A stretch of DNA of 64,000 nt from Naegleria gruberi (GCA_000004985.1 GG738928.1); one strand, 5' to 3'. Shown: positions 37,175-55,034, counted from the stretch's first letter. Numbers and translations: made by a program. Notes: a model not told the origin generated them from the letters alone.

Positions 37175-40100
37175 ATGAGAACAACACTGAATAAGAATGC
37201 TATCAAACACTCTTCGGCAACACTTGGTGTCTTGATGAAGAAATCATCATCATCTTGTGGAGTGTTTGTAAAGAAGAATGATTTGAATTTTGGAAATAAT
37301 AATTTAATTGATAGTAATATATCAAGAGGGTTAAATAGTAATGTTGCTAGTTTGTACAATGCACAGACAAAGAGAAGAAACATTTCGGAAGAATTGCAAA
37401 AACCTAACACTGTAAATTTGGAACAAGTTCATGATGTCATCAAGAGAAATTTGAATACCAATGAATTGGATTGTATTTTTAAGCCAAAGAGCATTTGTGT
37501 TATTGATGATTTCAATCCTGATGTTCATGCTAGTCCAGTTCCTGTACCTAACGATAGTATTAGTAGTACTTTGGCTAGAAATGTTCTCTGGAATTTAATG
37601 TCTGTGTCACAAGTCAAGGTTTATGCAGTTTCTAAACATGTGGAAAGAGTTGGCAATGAACCAAAAACAAAGAGAAGACCACATTTATTGGGTGTACCAA
37701 TGTATCCATCTCTGAGTGAATTGTCAGCATCTAAATCTACAGAACAAAAGAAATTAGAAATTGATTTGGCTGTCATTTGTTGCCATCAAGTCGAAACCAT
37801 GTTCTATGCTTTGGAGGAGTGTATCAAGAATGGTGTTAAAGGATGTGTCATTATTGGAAGTGTTTACAGCAAATTTTATGAAAAATTCAGTGAAAATGAA
37901 ACAAAGAATATTGAAAAATTCAAGGAAATTGTCAAGGGATCTGACATTAGAGTTATTGGTCCTGGTATGGGTCTTATAACACCTCTTGTAACTCAATCAG
38001 GTCAATATCACGTTGGTGAAATTTACAATAACTTTTTGAATATTACTCCAACAAATAGAAGTTCTGAACTGACTCGTGGTAAAATTGGTGTTGTTTCACA
38101 ATCTGGTGCTTTGGCAACAACCATTCTCGATTGGAGTTTGAAGCAAGGAGTAGGATTGAGTGGTTTTGCCTGTGTTGGTGCTAATCAAACTGATGTTAAC
38201 TTTGCAGATATGGTTGAACATTTTGGTAATGATCCAAATACTCATGCCATCTTGTTGTACATTGAAGATTTGGGAAATAATGAACATATTAAGAGATTTG
38301 CCAGTGCTGCCAGAAGTGTAGCTTTAAAGAAGCCAATTATTGCCATGAAGATGAACACTAACAATAGAGACGAAGACAATTACCTTAATGCCCTCTTTGA
38401 AAGAGTTGGTATTTTAAGAGTTAATTCTATTGAAGAAATGTTTTACATGTCACAGCTTATTGGAAAACAAGCCATTACAAAGGGAAACACCATTACTGTT
38501 ATTTCTAACTCTGGTGGTGCTGCAACACTTGCTGTTGACGCCATCTACCAATCTAACATTACCGAATTGGGAGCTATTTCTAACAAGAGTGCAAAACTTT
38601 TGCAAGAGAGTGGAATTGATGTAGAAGAGGCTTTACTTTCTGGAAAGAAGGCTATTCCTGTAAATATCAGAAACACAGCCACTCCTGAACAATATGTTGC
38701 TGCTTTGGATATTGTATATAACGATCCAAAGACTGACAGCGTTCTTGTCATGTTAACTCCTCAAACAAGAACAGAACCAACAAGAACTGCTCAATTCTTA
38801 CAAAGATATATTGTTGAAAAGACAAAGGAAGGAAAATTATCCAAGCCAATTATGTGCTGTTTTATGGGTGGTAGAGATGTTGAAGCAGGTAGAAGTATCT
38901 TGTTGAGTGCTAACATTCCAGCTTTTGCCTTCCCAGAAATTGCTACCAAAGTATTCCAATACAATTACAGATACTCTAAGAATTTGGAAAATTTATATGA
39001 AGATCCAAGTCTTCTCGACAATGATGATGCCAGCCAAAATGAATCATCAAAACAAAAGGCTAGAGAATACATCAAGTCCTTACTTGAAAAGAATCCAAAC
39101 AAGGAAGCTCTCAATGAATATGAGAGTCAACATCTTCTTTCACTCTATGGTATTGGCGTTCCTCAGACAAGAATTGCTAACTCTGCTGAAGAAGCTGTGG
39201 AAGCTGCCAAACATATTGGATATCCAGTTGTGCTCAAATTGCACAATAGTGATACCACCATTTCCAAGTTAGATTTGGGTGGTGTTCTTTTGAATTTGAT
39301 GGATGAAAAGCAAGTTAAACAAGGTTTCAATTCTATCAAGCAATCAGTTGAAAAGAGTAATGTCAAATTTACTGGAGTTACTGTTCAATCAGATTGTAAG
39401 AAGATTGCTACTGGTAAGAGAGATTCCATTTCATTCGAATTGTATCTAGGATCTGAAGTTGATGAAAAGTTTGGACCAGTTATTTCATTTGGTACAGGTG
39501 GCTCTTTGCATCAAATTTACAAGGATAAGAGTTATGGCATTCCTCCACTTACTGCTCCTTTGGCCTATCAACTTTTGAGAAAGACAAAGATTTCTGATGC
39601 CCTCGTTGAAAGATTCAGAAATAAGCCAGCCATTGATATTGAAGGTTTAAAGTCTTTGCTCGTTCGTTTCAGCAGAATGGTTCTTGATAATAGCGATTTG
39701 ATTAAGGAATTTGAAATTAATCCTCTTCAAGCTCTTGCTACTGACAATGAAAAGTCCTTCACTGCTCTCGACTGCAGACTCACTCTCCACAAACCAAAGG
39801 CCAAGAAGGCTCAAAATGTCATTCGTTCCTACGAAAGAAAGTATGTCACCAACGTTAGTGATGATATCCTTGTTAGACCATCCAAGTTTTCTGATTTTAG
39901 AAAGCTTCTCTCATTCTTTACCAATCTCTCACCAAAGACTTTGGAATCTAGTATTAGAGAGTCAGCTCTTCGTTCACAATGCTCCATTGCTTTCCTCAGT
40001 TTGAAGAATCAATACAATAAGGCCAAGAATCAAGATGCTCCACAACCATTGGATCCATATGCATTGAGTCTTAACACAGATGGAGACTCTAAGGAGATTT

Positions 40101-40477
40101 ACCAAGAATTGGTTCAGTACGTTTCCAGTGACTTTGACAGAGAAGTTGTATTGTTCGCTATCGATAAGAAGAGCAAGTCCATTATCGGCATGGGTGTCTA
40201 CACAATTATGCAACAATCCATTGTTAGTTCAAAGAAGAGAAAGGCCGAACTCCAACTCCTTGTTGGTGAACAAGCTCAAGGAAAGGGTATTGGTAAATAC
40301 CTCTTGGAACAATTAATTCACATTGCCAAACAAGAAGGAAACATTTCACAACTCATTGCCTACACTCACCACTCCAACATTGGTGTTCAAAAGTTGTGTA
40401 CTCGCGCTGGATTTGTTGAGCAAGACAATTCAGAACTTTTTGAACAAGGTGTTCTAGTTTCAACCTTGGATTTGTAA
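37175..40477 (+). CDS. Pat-like protein: NDP-forming acyl-CoA synthetase-like region (CoA-binding, ligase-CoA and ATP-grasp) fused to C-terminal GNAT acetyltransferase
   Basis: 1100-aa single ORF. The CoA-binding region is around 'KSICVIDDFNPDV'. The succinyl-CoA-ligase-like region is 'GKIGVVSQSGALATTILDWSLKQGVGLSGFACVGANQTD'. The ATP-grasp region is 'GYPVVLKLHNSDTTISKLDLGGVLLNL'. The C-terminal GNAT region is 'LLVGEQAQGKGIGKYLLEQLIHIAK'. No His aligns at the position of the ACD catalytic HTGA histidine. Confidence 0.75.
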   Translation: MRTTLNKNAIKHSSATLGVLMKKSSSSCGVFVKKNDLNFGNNNLIDSNISRGLNSNVASLYNAQTKRRNISEELQKPNTVNLEQVHDVIKRNLNTNELDCIFKPKSICVIDDFNPDVHASPVPVPNDSISSTLARNVLWNLMSVSQVKVYAVSKHVERVGNEPKTKRRPHLLGVPMYPSLSELSASKSTEQKKLEIDLAVICCHQVETMFYALEECIKNGVKGCVIIGSVYSKFYEKFSENETKNIEKFKEIVKGSDIRVIGPGMGLITPLVTQSGQYHVGEIYNNFLNITPTNRSSELTRGKIGVVSQSGALATTILDWSLKQGVGLSGFACVGANQTDVNFADMVEHFGNDPNTHAILLYIEDLGNNEHIKRFASAARSVALKKPIIAMKMNTNNRDEDNYLNALFERVGILRVNSIEEMFYMSQLIGKQAITKGNTITVISNSGGAATLAVDAIYQSNITELGAISNKSAKLLQESGIDVEEALLSGKKAIPVNIRNTATPEQYVAALDIVYNDPKTDSVLVMLTPQTRTEPTRTAQFLQRYIVEKTKEGKLSKPIMCCFMGGRDVEAGRSILLSANIPAFAFPEIATKVFQYNYRYSKNLENLYEDPSLLDNDDASQNESSKQKAREYIKSLLEKNPNKEALNEYESQHLLSLYGIGVPQTRIANSAEEAVEAAKHIGYPVVLKLHNSDTTISKLDLGGVLLNLMDEKQVKQGFNSIKQSVEKSNVKFTGVTVQSDCKKIATGKRDSISFELYLGSEVDEKFGPVISFGTGGSLHQIYKDKSYGIPPLTAPLAYQLLRKTKISDALVERFRNKPAIDIEGLKSLLVRFSRMVLDNSDLIKEFEINPLQALATDNEKSFTALDCRLTLHKPKAKKAQNVIRSYERKYVTNVSDDILVRPSKFSDFRKLLSFFTNLSPKTLESSIRESALRSQCSIAFLSLKNQYNKAKNQDAPQPLDPYALSLNTDGDSKEIYQELVQYVSSDFDREVVLFAIDKKSKSIIGMGVYTIMQQSIVSSKKRKAELQLLVGEQAQGKGIGKYLLEQLIHIAKQEGNISQLIAYTHHSNIGVQKLCTRAGFVEQDNSELFEQGVLVSTLDL

Positions 40478-47189: not shown

Positions 47190-47913
47190 ATGGCCAAAGG
47201 AGGAAAAACAGCAGCTAGTGTAAAGAAGGGATCATCATCTGGAGGTTCTCTAGAATACAATCCGAAGAAAAATCTTGTAGAAATAATTCCTGGAGTTGTT
47301 GGGCCGGTTTTACTGCCCACTTTACCAACACCAGGAACACCATTGAATACAAACTATGCAGGACCAACAGATTATTCAAATTGGCTGATACCACATCATA
47401 TTTGTGTCGGAGGATATCCAAGATCAAAGGAAGTTGATAGTATTGTATCGAGTGGAGTGACAACTTTTGTTAATTTAGTGGAGGAAGATGAACAATTGAG
47501 ATGTGGACCATTCTATTTTGCAAATGCATTGAAAAAGACAACAAGATCTAAATTGAATTATGTTACATTTCCAATAAGAGATAAGAATATTGCTGAAGAT
47601 GACAAAGTGACGGAATTAGTGACATTGTTAGCTCAATTGGTGAATAGAGGTGAAGTTTTATACGTTCACTGTGTTGGGTAAGTACTATACTATATGTTTC
47701 GAATATATATTGAACTCAATATTTAACAGAGGACATGGAAGAACAGGAACAGTCGCAGCCATTCTCCTTGGTCAACTCTTCAATATTTCAGCCTATGACA
47801 GTTTAAAGTGGGTTCAACTTTTCCATGACGAACGAAAAGTAACAAATGGAAGAAAGAGTCCAGAGTCAACCGTTCAAAGAGATCAAGTTTTCAGACTTTT
47901 ATCAAAGAAATAA
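47190..47913 (+). CDS. Dual-specificity/PTP-like phosphatase, 2 exons: about join(47190..47678,47731..47913); coordinates +/-1-2
   Basis: The splice across a ~52-bp GTAAGT...TTTAACAG intron restores the P-loop 'VHCVG|GHGRTGT' (HCxxGxxRT). My base count differs by 1 from the ORF track in this stretch. Confidence 0.6.
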
Positions 47914-47962: not shown

Positions 47963-50940
47963 ATGTCAAACAATCATCCACTCAACTTGTTCTCGGCTGA
48001 TTTGTATTCATCTGATGAGGATGAAGATTTGATTCAGAATGGTGGCGATCAGCATGGTAGTATGATGATGAGGATGGAAAATGGTGGTGCTTTGGATAGA
48101 TCCTTTGGGAGAGGAGGAGGACAACCTCAACAATCAACATCACATTTGAATCAATTGAATGATTCTTCTTTCGTTTCGGTAGCCTCTACTGGTGGAGCTT
48201 CTTCTTCTCTCAGTGTTGGTACTCCTGCAAGGAACACTGTTCGTAGTACTGATGCTAATAATGATGAAGATGAAGAAGCCTTAGAGAATGAGACTCCAGT
48301 GATACTCTCGTTGTGTTATCAGAGAGGAAGACTTGGCGTTGCTGCTTTTGATATGAATTCAGGTGAATTATTGTGTGGAGAAACCAATGAGAATACTCTC
48401 TTTGAAGCAACAGAATTCGGTATGTTTCTTATTGTTCAAATATTATTGAATTGGTCGAATTGATGATGAACAGTCAAATTTGAAGTAAAGCCTAATTTAA
48501 TTCTTGTTCCTTCCCGACTGGAACAATCCTTCATGAAACATGTTAAAAAGCCAATCGAAGGAGCAAAAGAGCAACAAATTGAAGTCAAGCTACTCAAGTC
48601 TTCTGATTTTAGTGCTGAGAATGCCACCAAGAAGATTCAATTATTAGAGAATGTATTACTCGGTAATCAAAATGATAGAATGATGACAGATGAGGAACCC
48701 TCCACTCCCATTCTTAACAATGGACCAGCATTTCTTAAACAAGCAAATAGATTAAGGCAAGTCAGTGAGAAGAATGATAACATGTTTGATTTTTCCTCAC
48801 TCTACGTTGAGGAGAATACACAGACAGTGAGAGCTTTGGGAGGATTATTGTGTCATATTCAAACCAATAGACTCTCTTTTGGTGAGCTTGATGATATTGA
48901 AGTCTTAAAGAACATCAAGAATATCAAAAATTTCAAGTTGTAAGTTGGTCAATTCACAGATATTACAAACTCATATGAAGTGAAGGATTTGTACAATTAG
49001 ATTTGAATACGTTGAAGGCTCTGTCAATATTTAGTTGTAAGTAGATTTTCAAATCAAAATTCTCATGCTCATGTTGTCACAGTGGAATCACATCCTTCAA
49101 GTTCTCTCGGTAAGCCAAAGGAAGGATTGTCATTATTTGGTATTATGAATAAGACAAAATCATCTGTTGGTAAAGATCTTCTTCGTCAATGGTTTTTGAA
49201 ACCAGTAATGGACTTGGATATTATCAAGAAGCGTCATGATGCCATAGATTATTTTAGCAGATTCTCAGATGATATTATTGACGAAATAAGGGAAAATCTC
49301 AAATTTGTTAAAAACACCAAACGTATCATCAACAGAATGAGAGAAGCAAAAGCAACAGTGAATGATTGGAGTAATCTCTACAAGACCTTGTACTGTTACA
49401 AGAATATTACTGAAATTCTGTCAGAAATGGATGATAATCCTTCCGTAGAAGTAGCCCAAGACTTGCTTAACCACGACAATGAGTCTATCATGAAAGTATT
49501 ACAAGCAATATCAAAAATTGTCGATCTCAAAGAGTCAAGAAGTCAAAACAGATTGGTCATAATGACAGGAGTCAACTCTGAACTTGATAATAGAAGACAA
49601 ACATATGAATCGTTAGATACATTCCTTGATCTGGTTGCTCAACAAGAATCCAACTCATTTCCTGAGGATTTCCCCTTCTCATTCAAGGCAGTGTACTACC
49701 CTCAACTTGGATTCCTTCTTGTGGTTGATAAGAATGAAACCTCTGAGAATTATTCAGAGTATGCTCAGTATGGGCTACGTTTTCATTTTTCCTCAGATCG
49801 TTCCTTGTACTTTAAAAACGACACAACTGATGAGCTGGACACAGAGGTTGGAGATATACACCACTTGATTATTGAACAAGAAACCTCCATTTCAGTTAAA
49901 TTGGAAAAATATGTGCTTCAATACCATGACCAAATTAACAAATCCAATGATCTTTGTGCCAAACTTGATTGTATCATTTCTATGGCTAATTGTGCCAGTG
50001 AGTTCAACCTATCAAGACCAGTAATGACCAACGAGAGTAAGCTCAATATTAGGGAAGGTAAGAATATTCTCCAAGAGTTAACAGTAGATACTTTCATTCC
50101 CAACGACACAAATATATCTGAATGTATTCAAATTATTACTGGTCCAAATAATTCTGGTAAATCTTGTTATTTGAAACAAGTAGGTTTAATTGTATTCATG
50201 GCTCATATTGGATCATTTGTGTCAGCATCTCCAGAATCAGTAATAGGAGTTGTAGATAGAATAATGACAAGAATTCAATCACAAGATAGTATCAGTGTTA
50301 GTCAATCCACTTTTGCCATTGATGTACTCCAAATGAAGGCCATGGTTGACTTTGCTTCTTCAAGATCTCTTCTCCTCATTGGTAAGTTTTTCAAACGCAC
50401 TTAATTCCAATAATATTATCAAAAGATGAATTTGGAAAAGGTACTTTGGCACTGGATGGAATAGCTCTCTTATCAGCAATCCTCAAACATTTCCAAGAAA
50501 GAGAACATGTACCGAGAGTGATTGTCACTACTCACTATGTTGAAGTGCTTCAACACAAAATCATTGATGTAAACTCAACATCTATTCAATTCATGACCAT
50601 GGATGTATTGATTGATTCAGTCAATGAATTGCCAAATGATATGGAAGATGAACACTTTGTGGTTCCAAGTGCTGAGGATTTAGTGTTTTTGTACAAATTG
50701 ACACGTGGTAAAATAATCCCAAGTTACGGCATAACTGTTGCCTCACTCGCTGGTCTTCCAAACCAAATTATTGAGAGAGCAAAATTTGTTGCCGAAAGGT
50801 TATCCAAATCAAAACCTATTGAAGCTGTAAAAGACAATGAGAAGGGAAAACTGTTCTATGAATTGTATGACCGTTTCAGAAAGTGTGACGGTTCTGAAGA
50901 GAGTATCAAGCAACTCTTCAACTTTGTCAAGTCAATTTGA
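47963..50940 (+). CDS. MSH5: MutS homolog 5 (MSH5, meiosis-specific), 5 exons: join(47963..48419,48474..48939,48981..49036,49083..50381,50426..50940)
   Basis: Walker A 'IITGPNNSGKSCYLKQVGLIVFMAHIGSFV' and 'DEFGKGT' are split by an intron. N-terminal 'ILSLCYQRGRLGVAAFDMNSGEL' and 'SESHPS...EGLSLFGIMNK' are collinear with MSH5. Introns are 54, 41, 46 and 44 bp, and exon 3 is a 56-nt microexon. Confidence 0.8.
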
Positions 50941-51141: not shown

Positions 51142-51894
51142 ATGACTGGCAATCAAGGTCCACCATTCGACAGATCCCAAGATCCTCAGAATGGACTCAT
51201 CTACCCAACATTCTTTTGGTGCCACTATTGTCAAGAAAATCCAAGTGGAAGTGGCTGGCGTTATTCCTACGAAATGACCAACTTTGTTTGTATTCCCTTA
51301 ATATTTAATTATTAACAAGTTCATGATGATTCATTTACAACAATACTTATTACTGATGTGGTGAATGTACAGAGACCACGTATTACTTGCAAAGGGGATT
51401 TGATTGGCTTGGAACAAACCTACAATGTTGATTTATCATTTGCATCACACGGTACTGATGTTTCTGATATTTCAGAGTGTTGCAATGTCTGGTTTGGTTA
51501 TCCACATAATTCACTATTCGAACATGCAGTAGATGGTAACTTGACTGCCTTAAAGAAATGTTTAGAAAATACTAATAACAGTCATGATATCAATGAAAAA
51601 CTCCAATTCGGTGATGAATGGACTCCTTTACATGGTGCAGTCGTTTACAATCAATTGGAAATTGTTGAACATTTGTTAAAACATGGTGCTGATTATACAA
51701 TTACCGATAAAAGAGGAAGATCGTGTCTCACCTTGGCTAGGATTTTGAATTTTACACAATGTGTTACCATGTTGAAGAAATATGTTAGTTCTGATTATTT
51801 ACAAAATCAATATCAAAATGAATTAGCAGAAAATGAACGTCAACTTGCTCAAACAAGATCAGAACTTATTACAAGTTATGGAATGAATGCATAA
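51142..51894 (+). CDS. Ankyrin-repeat protein, 2 exons: join(51142..51285,51373..51894)
   Basis: 'GDEWTPLHGAVVYNQLEIVEHLLKHGADYTITDKRGRSCLTLA' are ankyrin repeats. An 87-bp intron GTTTGT...TGTACAG links a 48-codon first exon in phase 0. The first exon is tentative. Confidence 0.5.
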
Positions 51895-52441
51895 ATTTAT
51901 TATTTGATAGTAATTCAATTATTAAATTCAATTATTCAAAATTCAATTTGCACTAATTCAAATTTAAAAAAATGCAAGTAAAGGTTGAATTTAGGTAAGA
52001 GGATAATTTCATAGTACTGATATCATCAAATCTTCGGAATAGTGGTGGATGCGAATTACTTTTCGATAATCAAACTTCAATGAATTTGGAAGTTGAAGAA
52101 GGATTGACAATGCAACAATTAATTCTCTTGTTGAAAGAAAAGCACTTGAAAGAAAAACCAGAACTTTTCATCAATAACGAAAATACATCAGTGTAAGGAT
52201 CATCACAGTGATTAGATATATTATAATATTATTTTTTTAATTATTACATCAACAATATTCATAACGATCAACATCTTCATCATACCAATAATCATCATTA
52301 TCAAATAATTTAAATAATTTAGGAGACCTGGTATTTTAGTAATTATTAATGATACTGATTGGGAATTATTGGACGAATTAAGTTACAAGATTCAAGCCAA
52401 AGATAACATTGTTTTCATTTCAACTCTTCACGGAGGATAAT

Positions 52442-53553
52442 TTATTGCATATACCAACCATGTGAAACAATCATTGATTGACCAGTTAAAGCATTAGTTG
52501 GATGTGAAGCAAAGAATAAAGTAGCTTGAGCAACATCATCAATTGTAGTAAATTCACCATCAACAGTGTCTTTTAACATGATATTCTTAACAACTTCTTG
52601 TTCACTAATGCCCAATTCCTTAGCTTGTTCTGGAATTTGCTTTTCAACAAGAGGAGTCAAAACGAAACCTGGACAAATAACGTTGGCACTAACACCCTTC
52701 TTAGCACCTTCCTTAGCAACAGCACGACACAAACCCAAAACACCATGTTTAGCAGAAACGTATGGAGCCTTCAATGGAGAAGCAAGCTTTGAGTGAACTG
52801 AACCAATATAGATAATCTTACCATACTTTTGTTCGTACATTTGCTTCAAAGCTTCACGAGTACACAAGAAAGCAGCATCCAAATGAACAGAAACAATCTT
52901 TCTCCAATTATCAAAACTCAATTTGTCAACTGGGTCAATATGTTGAACACCAGCATTACAAATTACAACGTCGATTGGCTTACCGAAATGCTTCTTAATA
53001 GCTTCATAGGTTTCAGTAACAACTTGTTCCTTGGTAACATCCATACCAACAGCCAAGTGTTGTGTAGCATTGTCAAGACCAGCAACAGTTGCTTGAGCAG
53101 CAGCCAAGTTCAAATCTCCAACAACGACTTTACCTCCTTCTTTAGCAAATAATTGAGCAATACCCTTTCCGATACCACTTCCAGCACCTATTATTATTAA
53201 TTGATGATGAATATTAATTATAATTATTAGTATGAGTATTATTATTAATAGTAATATTTTAATATAATCAACAAGTAGCAACGTGATTAATAGATGAGGA
53301 AAATAATAGATGAATATTATAATAGATGAAAAAACATATAATTGTACGACAGATACAAACGATCAAAGTTTTAAAACAATCCAATCCTTTAAAAAAACTT
53401 ACCAGTAACGAGACAAACCTTTCCTTCCAACTTTCCAGCCATTGGATTTTGGGAAGTAGAGAAGAGTCTTTGGGAGGCAGCCAAATTAAATTGTGGAGCA
53501 GTGGAGGATCTGAAGGCGAGTCTTTGAGATTGAGCAAGGGCGCGTTTGAACAT
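52442..53553 (-). CDS. bdhA-like: D-beta-hydroxybutyrate dehydrogenase (bacterial BdhA-type SDR) with mitochondrial-type presequence, 2 exons: join(52442..53187,53403..53553)
   Basis: Exon 1 encodes 'MFKRALAQSQRLAFRSSTAPQFNLAASQRLFSTSQNPMAGKLEGKVCLVT'. The 215-bp AT-rich intron runs GTAAGT...AATAG. The splice yields 'LVTGGAGSGIGKGIA'. The catalytic region is 'SVHSKLASPLKAPYVSAKHGVLGL'. Confidence 0.75.
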
Positions 53554-53852: not shown

Positions 53853-55034
53853 TTACAAAATTTTCTTAAGCTCATCTTGTTGTGCAGTAGTGAGACTAGT
53901 TGGGAAAATGACATTGAATTCAATGTGAAGATCACCCCTTTGAGCTGGGTTTTCCTTTCTTGGCATACCTTCACCCTTTACAACTCTAATACTGTTTGGT
54001 TTGATGACGTTATCAATCTTAATTTGTAAATTTCTGTCATCCAAATGTTTGATAATTTTGGTGAGTCCAGTCAAACTTTCCTTCAAAGAAATATCCATCT
54101 TCATCTTTAAATCGTCACCAACTCTAGTAAATGTAGAGTGTTCCTTAGTCTTGACAATAAAGATCAAATCACCACTACGATGAGATCTGGTAGCATCACC
54201 TTCACCATAGAAAATGATTTCTTCACCATCTCTCATACCTCTATCAATTTGTATCGTTAATGCAGTAGCCTTTTGAACAACATCGAAACGATTCTTACAT
54301 TCTTCACAATTATTTTCAGTCATTCTCTTCATAACACCATTGATAACCATCATTCTGATAACCTTATTTCTACATTCACATTTCTTTGGTTGAGAATTTC
54401 CTTCATGAGCAGTTCTAACTCTCTTAAAGTTCATAAGTCTACCATTGTAGAGATTTTCCAAAGTAACTTCGAGTGGGATTCTCAAATCTTGACCCTTGAA
54501 TTCATCTTCTTCTTCTTGTCCATCATTACCTCCACCAAAATTGAAATGGAAACCACCACCTCCACCAAAGAATTCAGAGAAAATATCCATTCCTCCCATT
54601 CCACCACCAGGATGACCTCCTCTTTCTTGTTGTTTTAATCCTTCTTCTCCATATCTATCATAAACTTGTCTCTTTTTTTCATCGGATAAGACTTCATAGG
54701 CATGTGAAATTTGGGCATACTTTTTTTGAGCATCAGCCTTATCATCACCCTTGTATCTATCAGGGTGATATTTCATTGTCAACTTTTTAAATGCTCGTTT
54801 AATTTGGTCTTGAGCAGCATTCTTTGGAACGTGTAAAGTTTCATAAAGATCAGCAGCTAAACAACTACCAATAAACAAAATACAACAACACAATACAAGA
54901 AGGAGAGAAAATCTAATAGATGATGATCTTCGGGAAGTAGTCATTGTTTGATGATGAAAATTTCCGCCACCTGTTGAGAAGGAATTCATTTTTTTTCTCT
55001 TTGCTTTTTTGCAAAGAGTTTTCATTCCGAACAC
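53853..55034 (-). CDS. DnaJ/Hsp40 chaperone (type I/II, ER-luminal Scj1/ERdj3-like with signal peptide); true start probably an internal Met (about 54944)
   Basis: The J-domain is 'DLYETLHVPKNAAQDQIKRAFKKLTMKYHPDRYK'. It is followed by a Gly-rich region, a partial CxxC zinc-finger region and a C-terminal substrate-binding domain. The N-terminal hydrophobic segment is 'FSLLLVLCCCILFIGSCLA'. Confidence 0.8.
   Translation of the reverse strand: MFGMKTLCKKAKRKKMNSFSTGGGNFHHQTMTTSRRSSSIRFSLLLVLCCCILFIGSCLAADLYETLHVPKNAAQDQIKRAFKKLTMKYHPDRYKGDDKADAQKKYAQISHAYEVLSDEKKRQVYDRYGEEGLKQQERGGHPGGGMGGMDIFSEFFGGGGGFHFNFGGGNDGQEEEDEFKGQDLRIPLEVTLENLYNGRLMNFKRVRTAHEGNSQPKKCECRNKVIRMMVINGVMKRMTENNCEECKNRFDVVQKATALTIQIDRGMRDGEEIIFYGEGDATRSHRSGDLIFIVKTKEHSTFTRVGDDLKMKMDISLKESLTGLTKIIKHLDDRNLQIKIDNVIKPNSIRVVKGEGMPRKENPAQRGDLHIEFNVIFPTSLTTAQQDELKKIL

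What the first reader, a model, noticed from the sequence alone, without database searches (positions are those of the whole stretch)
47963..50940. Meiosis-specific MSH5 with a 56-nt microexon and 41-54 bp introns
The MutS homolog here is collinear with MSH5, not MSH2/3/6. It lacks the mismatch-binding N-terminal domain motifs and has MSH5-like 'LSLCYQRGRLGVAAFD' and 'SESHPS' blocks. MSH5 functions only in meiotic crossover formation, so its intact presence is evidence for a sexual or meiotic capability in this organism. The gene model requires a 56-nt microexon (48981..49036, encoding 'EGFVQLDLNTLKALSIFS'), which ab initio gene finders usually miss. All four introns are 41-54 bp.
Basis: partly seen in the sequence, partly recalled or inferred. 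Interest (0 to 1): 0.5.

Follow-up and report, generated by a model that had tools for sequence, protein, structure and literature searches.

The report
Naegleria gruberi MSH5 gene, mis-annotated exon

Summary
Window 47963-50940 (+) carries a five-exon, 930-codon MutS-family gene with four GT..AG introns of 54, 41, 46 and 44 nt and a 56-nt third exon.

The window is Naegleria gruberi. The gene is NAEGRDRAFT_75725 (XP_002669325.1). Herman et al. 2021 already list JGI 75725 as Msh5 and JGI 442 as its partner Msh4, so the meiosis-toolkit reading is textbook for this organism.

My tests agree with MSH5:
- The best named hits are vertebrate MSH5.
- The precomputed Pfam family MutS5_N is on the public protein.
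- There is no MutS domain I.
- The MSH5 split has 100% NJ bootstrap support, against 0% for a split with MSH4.

The one useful new point is annotation. The public 924-aa model uses a single 105-nt intron, skips the 56-nt exon and translates intron 3. Four results support it:
- N. fowleri and Willaertia magna have 56-nt exons at the same position and phase.
- Substitutions between species fall mainly on third codon positions.
- It ranks first of 52 possible splice structures.
- dN/dS is about 0.07 over the whole gene.

No transcript data could be checked. At 56 nt the exon is a short exon rather than a strict microexon. Low interest.

The parts
47963..50940 (+). Whole MSH5 coding region, ATG to TGA: 5 exons, 930 codons. 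It is locus NAEGRDRAFT_75725.
   Evidence: Splice and translation. Public protein P0001 maps exactly here. Accessions. Published as Msh5.
47963..48419 (+). Exon 1. Residues 1-~110 are a low-complexity tail. The conserved body starts at ~113 (LSLCYQRGRLGVAAFD at 115-130), which is the start of the MSH5 N-terminal/connector domain.
   Evidence: Alignment A1. Model residue 113 aligns with bacterial MutS residue ~126, i.e. after domain I. The start and the first ~25 residues are conserved in N. fowleri.
48420..48473 (+). Intron 1, 54 nt, GTATGT..AG, phase 1 at codon 153.
   Evidence: Same position and phase in N. fowleri.
48474..48939 (+). Exon 2, 466 nt (rest of the MutS5_N / connector region).
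   Evidence: Precomputed PF27035 MutS5_N on the public protein, which is identical over this part.
48940..48980 (+). Intron 2, 41 nt, GTAAGT..AG, phase 2 at codon 308.
   Evidence: Only 16-42% alignable identity between species, so it is intron-like.
48981..49036 (+). Exon 3, the 56-nt short exon, encoding (F)EGFVQLDLNTLKALSIFS(L). This is the conserved motif at the start of MutS domain III. The public N. gruberi model lacks it.
   Evidence: 56 nt in N. fowleri (L001 3849-3904) and in Willaertia (L002 4088-4143). Nucleotide identity is 71-75%, with 12 of 14 N. gruberi/N. fowleri differences at third codon positions. The motif aligns with all MSH5 and MutS references. Best of 52 in-frame splice structures.
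49037..49082 (+). Intron 3, 46 nt, GTAAGT..CAG, phase 1 at codon 327. The public model translates 49045-49082 of it as 'LFSNQNSHAHVVTV'.
49083..50381 (+). Exon 4, 1299 nt: ESHPS..KEGLSLFG MSH5 signature, MutS domain III (aa 317-628), weak domain IV, and the first part of domain V.
   Evidence: Pfam. Alignment A1 invariant columns.
50141..50164 (+). Walker A / P-loop, GPNNSGKS (aa 680-687).
   Evidence: G680, N682, G685, K686 and S687 are invariant in A1. Coordinates read from the sequence.
50382..50425 (+). Intron 4, 44 nt, GTAAGT..AG, phase 1 inside the Walker B aspartate codon 760.
   Evidence: Same position and phase in N. fowleri.
50369..50445 (+). Walker B, LLLIDEFGKGT (aa 756-766), interrupted by intron 4.
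   Evidence: D760, E761, F762, G763, K764, G765 and T766 are invariant in A1.
50426..50940 (+). Exon 5, 515 nt including the TGA stop: rest of domain V (TTHY at aa 794) and the C-terminal helical region.
   Evidence: The last exon is also 515 nt in N. fowleri, and the C-terminus ...FVKSI is conserved.

Best explanation
The locus is the single-copy Naegleria gruberi orthologue of MSH5. MSH5 is the MutS homologue that pairs with MSH4 to form MutS-gamma.

Shown here:
- The gene is an intact five-exon gene under strong purifying selection.
- The product has the MutS connector, lever/clamp and ATPase domains, with intact Walker A and B motifs.
- It lacks the mismatch-binding domain I.
- It groups with MSH5 and not with MSH2, 3, 4, 6 or bacterial MutS.
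- The correct mRNA almost certainly includes the 56-nt third exon, which supplies the conserved helix that opens domain III. The public model XP_002669325.1 is wrong at that point: it joins the donor at 48940 to an AG that lies inside the next intron's GTAAGTAG.

Inferred from established knowledge of the family (Hollingsworth 1995; Snowden 2004; summarised in PMC12292046 and PMC2488364):
- With MSH4 (JGI 442), the protein forms an ATP-driven sliding clamp.
- The clamp embraces recombination intermediates (D-loops, Holliday junctions) rather than mismatches.
- It stabilises them and hands them to MutL-gamma, giving interfering (class I) crossovers.
- Its conservation is therefore indirect evidence that Naegleria can carry out meiotic or meiosis-like recombination.
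For: Gene model:
- In-frame 930-aa product with canonical splice sites.
- The annotated N. fowleri gene has a 56-nt exon at the same place, and the Willaertia gene shows one on manual reading of its sequence.
- All four N. gruberi introns sit at the same codon and phase as in N. fowleri.
- The short exon is 71-75% identical between species with third-position-biased changes, while the flanking introns are 16-48% identical.
- It encodes the conserved hydrophobic-x-hydrophobic-D..T...L.IF motif, where the public model has unrelated residues.
- It ranks 1 of 52 in-frame GT-AG structures; the public model ranks 20.

Family assignment:
- Pfam MutS_III and MutS_V, no MutS_I.
- Top named hits are MSH5, and PF27035 MutS5_N is precomputed on the public protein.
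- Paralogue scores: MSH5 211 bits against 113-123 for MSH4, MSH2 and MSH6.
- NJ bootstrap 100% for the MSH5 split and 0% with MSH4.
- Synteny with N. fowleri and Willaertia: phosphatase, MSH5..., Urm1, SDR, DnaJ.

Selection: dN 0.22, dS ~3, so dN/dS ~0.07.

Literature:
- Herman 2021 Table S2 gives Msh5 = 75725 and Msh4 = 442.
- Dereeper 2023 Table S6 gives one MSH4 and one MSH5 in N. gruberi.
Against: - No cDNA or RNA-seq could be examined. Exact spliced-junction searches of metagenome contigs found nothing.
- The AlphaFold model of the N. fowleri orthologue is poor (mean pLDDT 59, about 30 around the short-exon segment), so structure adds little.
- My tree is neighbour-joining with a simple distance. 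The MSH4 references are diatoms only, and there is a single MSH3 fragment.
- The papers read here report genetic evidence for sex in Naegleria (heterozygosity, recombination) but describe no meiosis.
- Some downstream partners are reported inconsistently: MER3 and MLH3 are 'not found', while Mlh3 is listed.
- MSH5 may have non-meiotic roles in some organisms (my own knowledge).
Confidence: 0.93

Rival explanations
1. The public gene model is right: one 105-nt intron (48940-49044), no 56-nt exon, a 924-aa protein reading ...NFKLFSNQNSHAHVVTVESHPS...
For: It is the deposited RefSeq/JGI model. It is in frame and uses GT..AG.
Against: - Its acceptor AG is the last two bases of the next intron's donor, GTAAGTAG.
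- It removes a motif that is invariant or nearly so across MSH5 and MutS and replaces it with non-homologous residues.
- Both sister taxa encode the 56-nt exon.
- It ranks 20 of 52 candidate structures.
Confidence: 0.03
2. Both isoforms exist. Use or skipping of the short exon is regulated, for example a non-functional in-frame isoform in vegetative cells and the full isoform in a sexual stage.
For: The alternative acceptor keeps the frame, with an 18-nt difference. Nothing here excludes it.
Against: No transcript evidence either way. A gene predictor will always pick an in-frame option, so the frame agreement is not informative. No such isoform is annotated for the N. fowleri or Willaertia orthologues retrieved here.
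Confidence: 0.07
3. The gene is a true MSH5 orthologue, but in Naegleria it serves a non-meiotic process (mitotic or parasexual recombination, or repair). Its presence would then say little about sex.
For: The papers read here describe no meiosis in Naegleria. Toolkit papers themselves warn that presence is only supportive. Some ZMM partners are reported missing.
Against: MSH4, SPO11, DMC1, HOP2, MND1 and HAP2 are retained alongside it. Heterozygosity and recombination consistent with sex are reported for Naegleria. Purifying selection is strong.
Confidence: 0.12
4. It is another MutS paralogue (MSH4, MSH2/3/6, MSH1 or MutS2) that merely resembles MSH5.
For: Domain V alone scores well against human MSH3, at 37% identity over ~300 residues.
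Against: Full-length collinearity exists only with MSH5, including the N-terminal domain. Bootstrap support is 100% for the MSH5 split and 0% with MSH4. There is no domain I. Separate N. gruberi genes are published for Msh2, 3, 4 and 6.
Confidence: 0.01

Closest known systems
MSH5 of animals and fungi (human NP_002432, yeast NP_010127), a subunit of MutS-gamma
   Same: The domain order is collinear: MutS5_N/connector, III, IV, V, with no domain I. The signatures IF..E.HPS...KEGLSLFG, TGPN.SGKS.YLKQVGLI, STF.ID and DEFGKGT are present. Identity is 29-35% over about 730-830 aligned residues.
   Different: A ~110-residue low-complexity N-terminal tail, heterolobosean-specific insertions (aa ~215-255 and ~825-845), and retention of the His in TTHY where vertebrate MSH5 has ATNF. 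Function is untested in Naegleria.
Naegleria fowleri FDP41_006291 (XP_044559530.1) and Willaertia magna ABK040_013943 (KAL9652174.1)
   Same: They are positional orthologues, 72% and 60% identical. They share the 56-nt exon and conserved synteny, and the intron positions and phases match those of N. fowleri.
   Different: N. fowleri has one extra phase-1 intron at the Walker A codon (N. gruberi codon 680). Their public models include the short exon, whereas the N. gruberi public model does not.
MSH4 (the partner subunit)
   Same: It also lacks domain I and shares the MutS III-V core.
   Different: Identity is only ~19-20%, and it forms a separate 100%-supported clade. It lacks the ESHPS/KEGLSLFG signature and MutS5_N.
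MSH2 / MSH3 / MSH6 and bacterial MutS (mismatch repair)
   Same: The ATPase domain V and lever domain III are shared. Fold search of the orthologue model returns only these structures.
   Different: They carry domain I with the Phe-x-Glu (GDFYE) mismatch-binding motif, which is absent here.

Membership tests
MSH5 (MutS-gamma subunit) | MutS core: domain III plus ATPase domain V with intact Walker A and B | tested here: met
   PF05192 E 2.4e-30 and PF00488 E 4.6e-48. GPNNSGKS at 680 and LLLIDEFGKGT at 756, in invariant columns of A1.
MSH5 (MutS-gamma subunit) | Absence of the mismatch-binding domain I (Phe-x-Glu motif) | tested here: met
   No PF01624 hit at E<=0.1, whereas almost all bacterial MutS hits carry it. 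Only an acidic low-complexity tail lies opposite GDFYE, and the conserved body starts at bacterial residue ~126.
MSH5 (MutS-gamma subunit) | MSH5-specific N-terminal domain (Pfam PF27035 MutS5_N) | tested here: inconclusive
   It is precomputed on the public N. gruberi protein, whose first 307 residues are identical to my model. It is only 'weak' on N. fowleri and 'faint' on Willaertia. My own hmmscan did not list it, perhaps because the local Pfam copy predates it. The N-terminal blocks do align with vertebrate MSH5.
MSH5 (MutS-gamma subunit) | Groups with bona fide MSH5 to the exclusion of MSH2/3/4/6 and MutS | tested here: met
   NJ with 300 bootstraps gives 100% for the MSH5 split including the heteroloboseans, both on domain V (281 columns) and on 761 columns, and 0% with MSH4. 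Limits: a simple distance method, and diatom-only MSH4 references.
MSH5 (MutS-gamma subunit) | Best database and paralogue matches are MSH5 | tested here: met
   Named MSH5 proteins at 316-382 bits and an unnamed homologue at 447 bits, against <=198 bits for MutS. Seminavis MSH5 211 bits against MSH4 123. Published assignment of JGI 75725 to Msh5.
MSH5 (MutS-gamma subunit) | Partner MSH4 is encoded in the same genome and forms a heterodimer | not testable with these tools
   Only this window of the genome is available, and it holds no second MutS gene. The literature lists N. gruberi Msh4 = JGI 442 and one MSH4 orthogroup member. The physical interaction is untested.
MSH5 (MutS-gamma subunit) | Meiosis-specific expression and a role in crossover formation | not testable with these tools
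   No expression or genetic data are accessible. This feature is inferred from the family only.
MSH4 | Groups with MSH4; has the MSH4-type domain III/IV | tested here: not met
   0% bootstrap with MSH4 and ~19-20% identity. Diatom MSH4 scores 123 bits against 211 for MSH5.
MSH2/MSH3/MSH6/MutS1 mismatch-repair proteins | N-terminal mismatch-binding domain I and connector domain II (PF01624, PF05188) | tested here: not met
   Neither family is detected.
Microexon (strict sense) | Exon length at or below the usual cut-offs (about 27-30 nt, at most ~51 nt in looser definitions; my own knowledge) | tested here: not met
   The exon is 56 nt. It is a short exon that a gene predictor missed, not a microexon by the common definitions.

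The most novel reading that the evidence does not exclude
The in-frame alternative acceptor used by the public model (49044) is real and regulated. Naegleria would then switch MSH5 between an inactive form that lacks the domain-III entry helix and the active form. That would give a splicing-level switch for a cryptic sexual or meiotic programme that has not been seen directly.
Probability: 0.04. Interest if true: 0.5.

Novelty: already known. Interest (0 to 1): 0.15.

Why it matters
The biology is established. Naegleria's meiotic toolkit, including this very gene as Msh5 and its partner Msh4, has been published since 2010-2021.

The practical value is a correction of the reference protein (XP_002669325.1 / D2W2V4). 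That record lacks 20 conserved residues at the start of MutS domain III and carries 14 spurious ones. The corrected 930-aa sequence is not in the 15-billion-protein collection searched. Alignments, phylogenies and structure predictions that use the N. gruberi entry therefore inherit the error.

It is also a small worked example of short exons flanked by ~45-nt introns being lost by ab initio prediction in heterolobosean genomes.

Tried and rejected
I predicted the N. fowleri orthologue instead. The model is poor (pLDDT 59, pTM 0.42). Its fold search returns only MutS, MSH2, MSH3 and MSH6 structures, which adds nothing beyond the sequence evidence.
- Two exact searches for the spliced exon2/exon3 and exon3/exon4 junctions in metagenome contigs gave 0 hits, so there is no transcript evidence.
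- The look-up of encoding contigs had no record for the public N. gruberi protein.
- The PDB holds no MSH4 or MSH5 sequence match, so no direct structural reference exists there.
- A database search with a diatom MSH4 returned mostly diatom or unnamed environmental sequences. The 120 listed hits included no Naegleria MSH4 and no animal or fungal MSH4. MSH4 presence therefore rests on the literature.
- The Fritz-Laylin 2010 genome paper is not held. No paper mentions the accession numbers of this gene in its main text.
- I considered and rejected that the gene is MSH4 or a mismatch-repair paralogue, that it is a pseudogene (intact ORF, dN/dS ~0.07), and that the public model is correct.

Full report
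**Observation.** The region reads as an AT-rich eukaryotic gene (window GC 31-37%) made of open frames interrupted by short GT..AG stretches. The introns are 54, 41, 46 and 44 nt. Omitting the 56-nt exon while keeping the other junctions shifts the frame into stops. The quoted peptides are present, except that 'SESHPS' is really 'SLESHPS'.

**Organism and public record.** The best database hit is a 924-aa 'predicted protein' of Naegleria gruberi, 98% identical to my model. It is EFC36581.1 / XP_002669325.1 / D2W2V4 / NAEGRDRAFT_75725. Threading it onto the window reproduces it exactly with four exons, so the window is the reference N. gruberi sequence at this locus.

The public model uses a single 105-nt intron (48940-49044). 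It therefore skips the 56-nt exon and translates 49045-49082 as 'LFSNQNSHAHVVTV'.

**Which model is right.**
- The N. fowleri orthologue (P0002, 72% identical) and the Willaertia magna orthologue (P0003, 60%) read ...NFKF(D)GFVQ(L/M)D(M/I)NTLKALSIF... at this point. In their genomic loci this peptide is encoded by a separate exon of exactly 56 nt, flanked by introns of 52 and 69 nt in N. fowleri and 54 and 50 nt in Willaertia.
- All four N. gruberi introns lie at the same codon and phase as in N. fowleri: 153/1, 308/2, 327/1 and 760/1.
The flanking introns are only 16-48% identical.
- The exon encodes the conserved motif that opens MutS domain III (hydrophobic-x-hydrophobic-D..T...L.IF). This motif aligns across MSH5, MSH4, MSH2, MSH6 and bacterial MutS, while the public model has unrelated residues there.
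- I enumerated 580 GT-AG structures (0, 1 or 2 introns) in 48900-49110. The public one ranks 20th (254).

Transcript evidence could not be obtained. Spliced-junction searches of metagenome contigs were empty. The exact 930-aa sequence is absent from the 15-billion-protein collection.

**Family.** Pfam gives MutS_III, MutS_V and a weak MutS_IV, with no MutS_I or MutS_II.

Among database hits, the named ones after the three heteroloboseans are vertebrate 'mutS protein homolog 5', at 316-382 bits and 28-34% identity, most covering 84-90% of the query. An unnamed homologue scores 447 bits and a fungal one 352 bits. All carry the precomputed Pfam family PF27035, which names MutS5_N. Bacterial MutS follows at 198 bits or less. 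In the PDB, human MSH3, MSH2 and MSH6 reach only 174, 131 and 110 bits, and no MSH4 or MSH5 sequence was matched there.

To include MSH4, I took the Seminavis robusta MSH2, MSH4, MSH5 and MSH6 proteins from the supplement of PMC4647503. I added further diatom MSH4 proteins from a second database search and human MSH2, MSH3 and MSH6 fragments from PDB alignments. BLASTP of my model gives 211 bits to the truncated diatom MSH5, starting at residue 99 of my protein, against 123 to MSH4, 123 to MSH2 and 113 to MSH6.

Neighbour-joining with 300 bootstraps recovers the split 'named MSH5 plus the three heterolobosean proteins' in 100% of replicates, both on domain V alone (281 columns) and on 761 well-occupied columns. 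The heteroloboseans never group with MSH4. The region opposite the bacterial GDFYE (Phe-x-Glu) mismatch-binding motif is an acidic low-complexity tail, and real homology begins where bacterial domain II begins.

Gene order is shared with N. fowleri: phosphatase, MSH5, Urm1, SDR(-), DnaJ(-). Part of it is shared with Willaertia.

The limits of the tree are a simple distance method, diatom-only MSH4 references and a single MSH3 fragment.

**Integrity.** Walker A (GPNNSGKS), Walker B (LLLIDEFGKGT), STF and TTHY are intact and fall in invariant columns of the MSH5 alignment. Against N. fowleri, dN is 0.22 and dS about 3 (saturated), so dN/dS is roughly 0.07. This is a functional gene, not a relic.

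**Mechanism.** Shown here: an intact MutS-type ATPase clamp protein without a mismatch-binding domain, orthologous to MSH5.

Inferred from the family (summarised in PMC12292046 and PMC2488364): it heterodimerises with MSH4, and the ATP-bound clamp encircles recombination intermediates, stabilises them and promotes interfering crossovers together with MLH1-MLH3.

The inference to sex is the standard toolkit argument. Malik et al. state that presence supports sexuality but does not prove it. For Naegleria the argument is already published:
- Herman et al. 2021 list Msh5 = N. gruberi 75725, which is this locus tag, and Msh4 = 442.
- Dereeper et al. 2023 list one MSH4 and one MSH5 in N. gruberi, and cite heterozygosity and recombination as signs of sex.
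- The two papers disagree on MLH3 and MER3.

**Verdict.** What is new is modest: the public N. gruberi protein is mis-modelled at one short exon, and the corrected sequence appears not to be in public collections.

Calling the exon a 'microexon' is generous, since 56 nt is above the usual cut-offs (my own knowledge). Short introns are ordinary at this locus. The upstream phosphatase gene has a 52-nt intron at 47678-47729 (read). The genome-wide mean intron length for N. gruberi is given as 203 bp.

**Dead ends.** The N. fowleri surrogate model was of low confidence, and its fold matches were generic MutS-family structures.

Noticed in passing
window 47993-48034 (aa 11-24 of MSH5): Inside the otherwise unconserved low-complexity N-terminal tail, a short acidic motif S(A/S)DLYSSDEDEDLI is nearly identical in N. 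gruberi and N. fowleri and recognisable in Willaertia (SSSLYSDDEDDETL). It could be a phospho-regulated or interaction motif. Vertebrate MSH5 has only a loose acidic run there.
   Followed up: no
L001 5039-5107 (N. fowleri), corresponding to window ~50141 (codon 680): N. fowleri MSH5 has a fifth intron, phase 1 and 69 nt, at the first Walker A codon. N. gruberi lacks it, so an intron was gained or lost within the genus. The other four intron positions are identical.
   Followed up: partly
window 47190-47913 (+), intron 47678-47729: The upstream gene is a dual-specificity/PTP-like phosphatase (PF22784 PTP-SAK). Its HCxxGxxR active-site motif (VHCVG|GHGRTG) is split by a 52-nt GTAAGT..AG intron. 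A PTP-SAK gene also lies upstream of MSH5 in N. fowleri, where a phytochelatin synthase gene and an unannotated 114-aa gene are inserted between them.
   Followed up: partly
window 51142-52446 (+): An ankyrin-repeat gene (51142-51894, with an intron at about 51286-51362) lies between MSH5 and a three-exon Urm1 gene (~51966-52446). N. fowleri has Urm1 directly after MSH5, and Willaertia has a different gene in between. This is a small lineage-specific insertion in otherwise conserved synteny with SDR (52442-53281, -) and DnaJ (53853-55034, -).
   Followed up: partly
window 37175-40477 (+): An uninterrupted 1100-aa ORF combines Succ_CoA_lig, Ligase_CoA_2, ATP-grasp_5 and a C-terminal GNAT acetyltransferase domain. 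This is the architecture of bacterial Pat-type (ADP-forming acyl-CoA synthetase-like) protein acetyltransferases, so it is a possible bacterial-type gene in Naegleria.
   Followed up: no
alignment A1, columns ~925-935 (window ~50527-50538, TTHY at aa 794): The heterolobosean and fungal MSH5 proteins and one unnamed homologue (P0004) keep the His of the MutS 'TH' motif (TTHY, TTHF, STHF). All vertebrate MSH5 sequences in the alignment have ATNF.
   Followed up: no
PMC9928731 Table S6 versus PMC8296547 Table S2: The two Naegleria papers disagree on crossover partners. MLH3 and MER3 are 'not found' in the pangenome study. Mlh3 (N. gruberi 70637) is listed by Herman et al., and the pangenome paper says Herman et al. 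also detected MER3.
   Followed up: no
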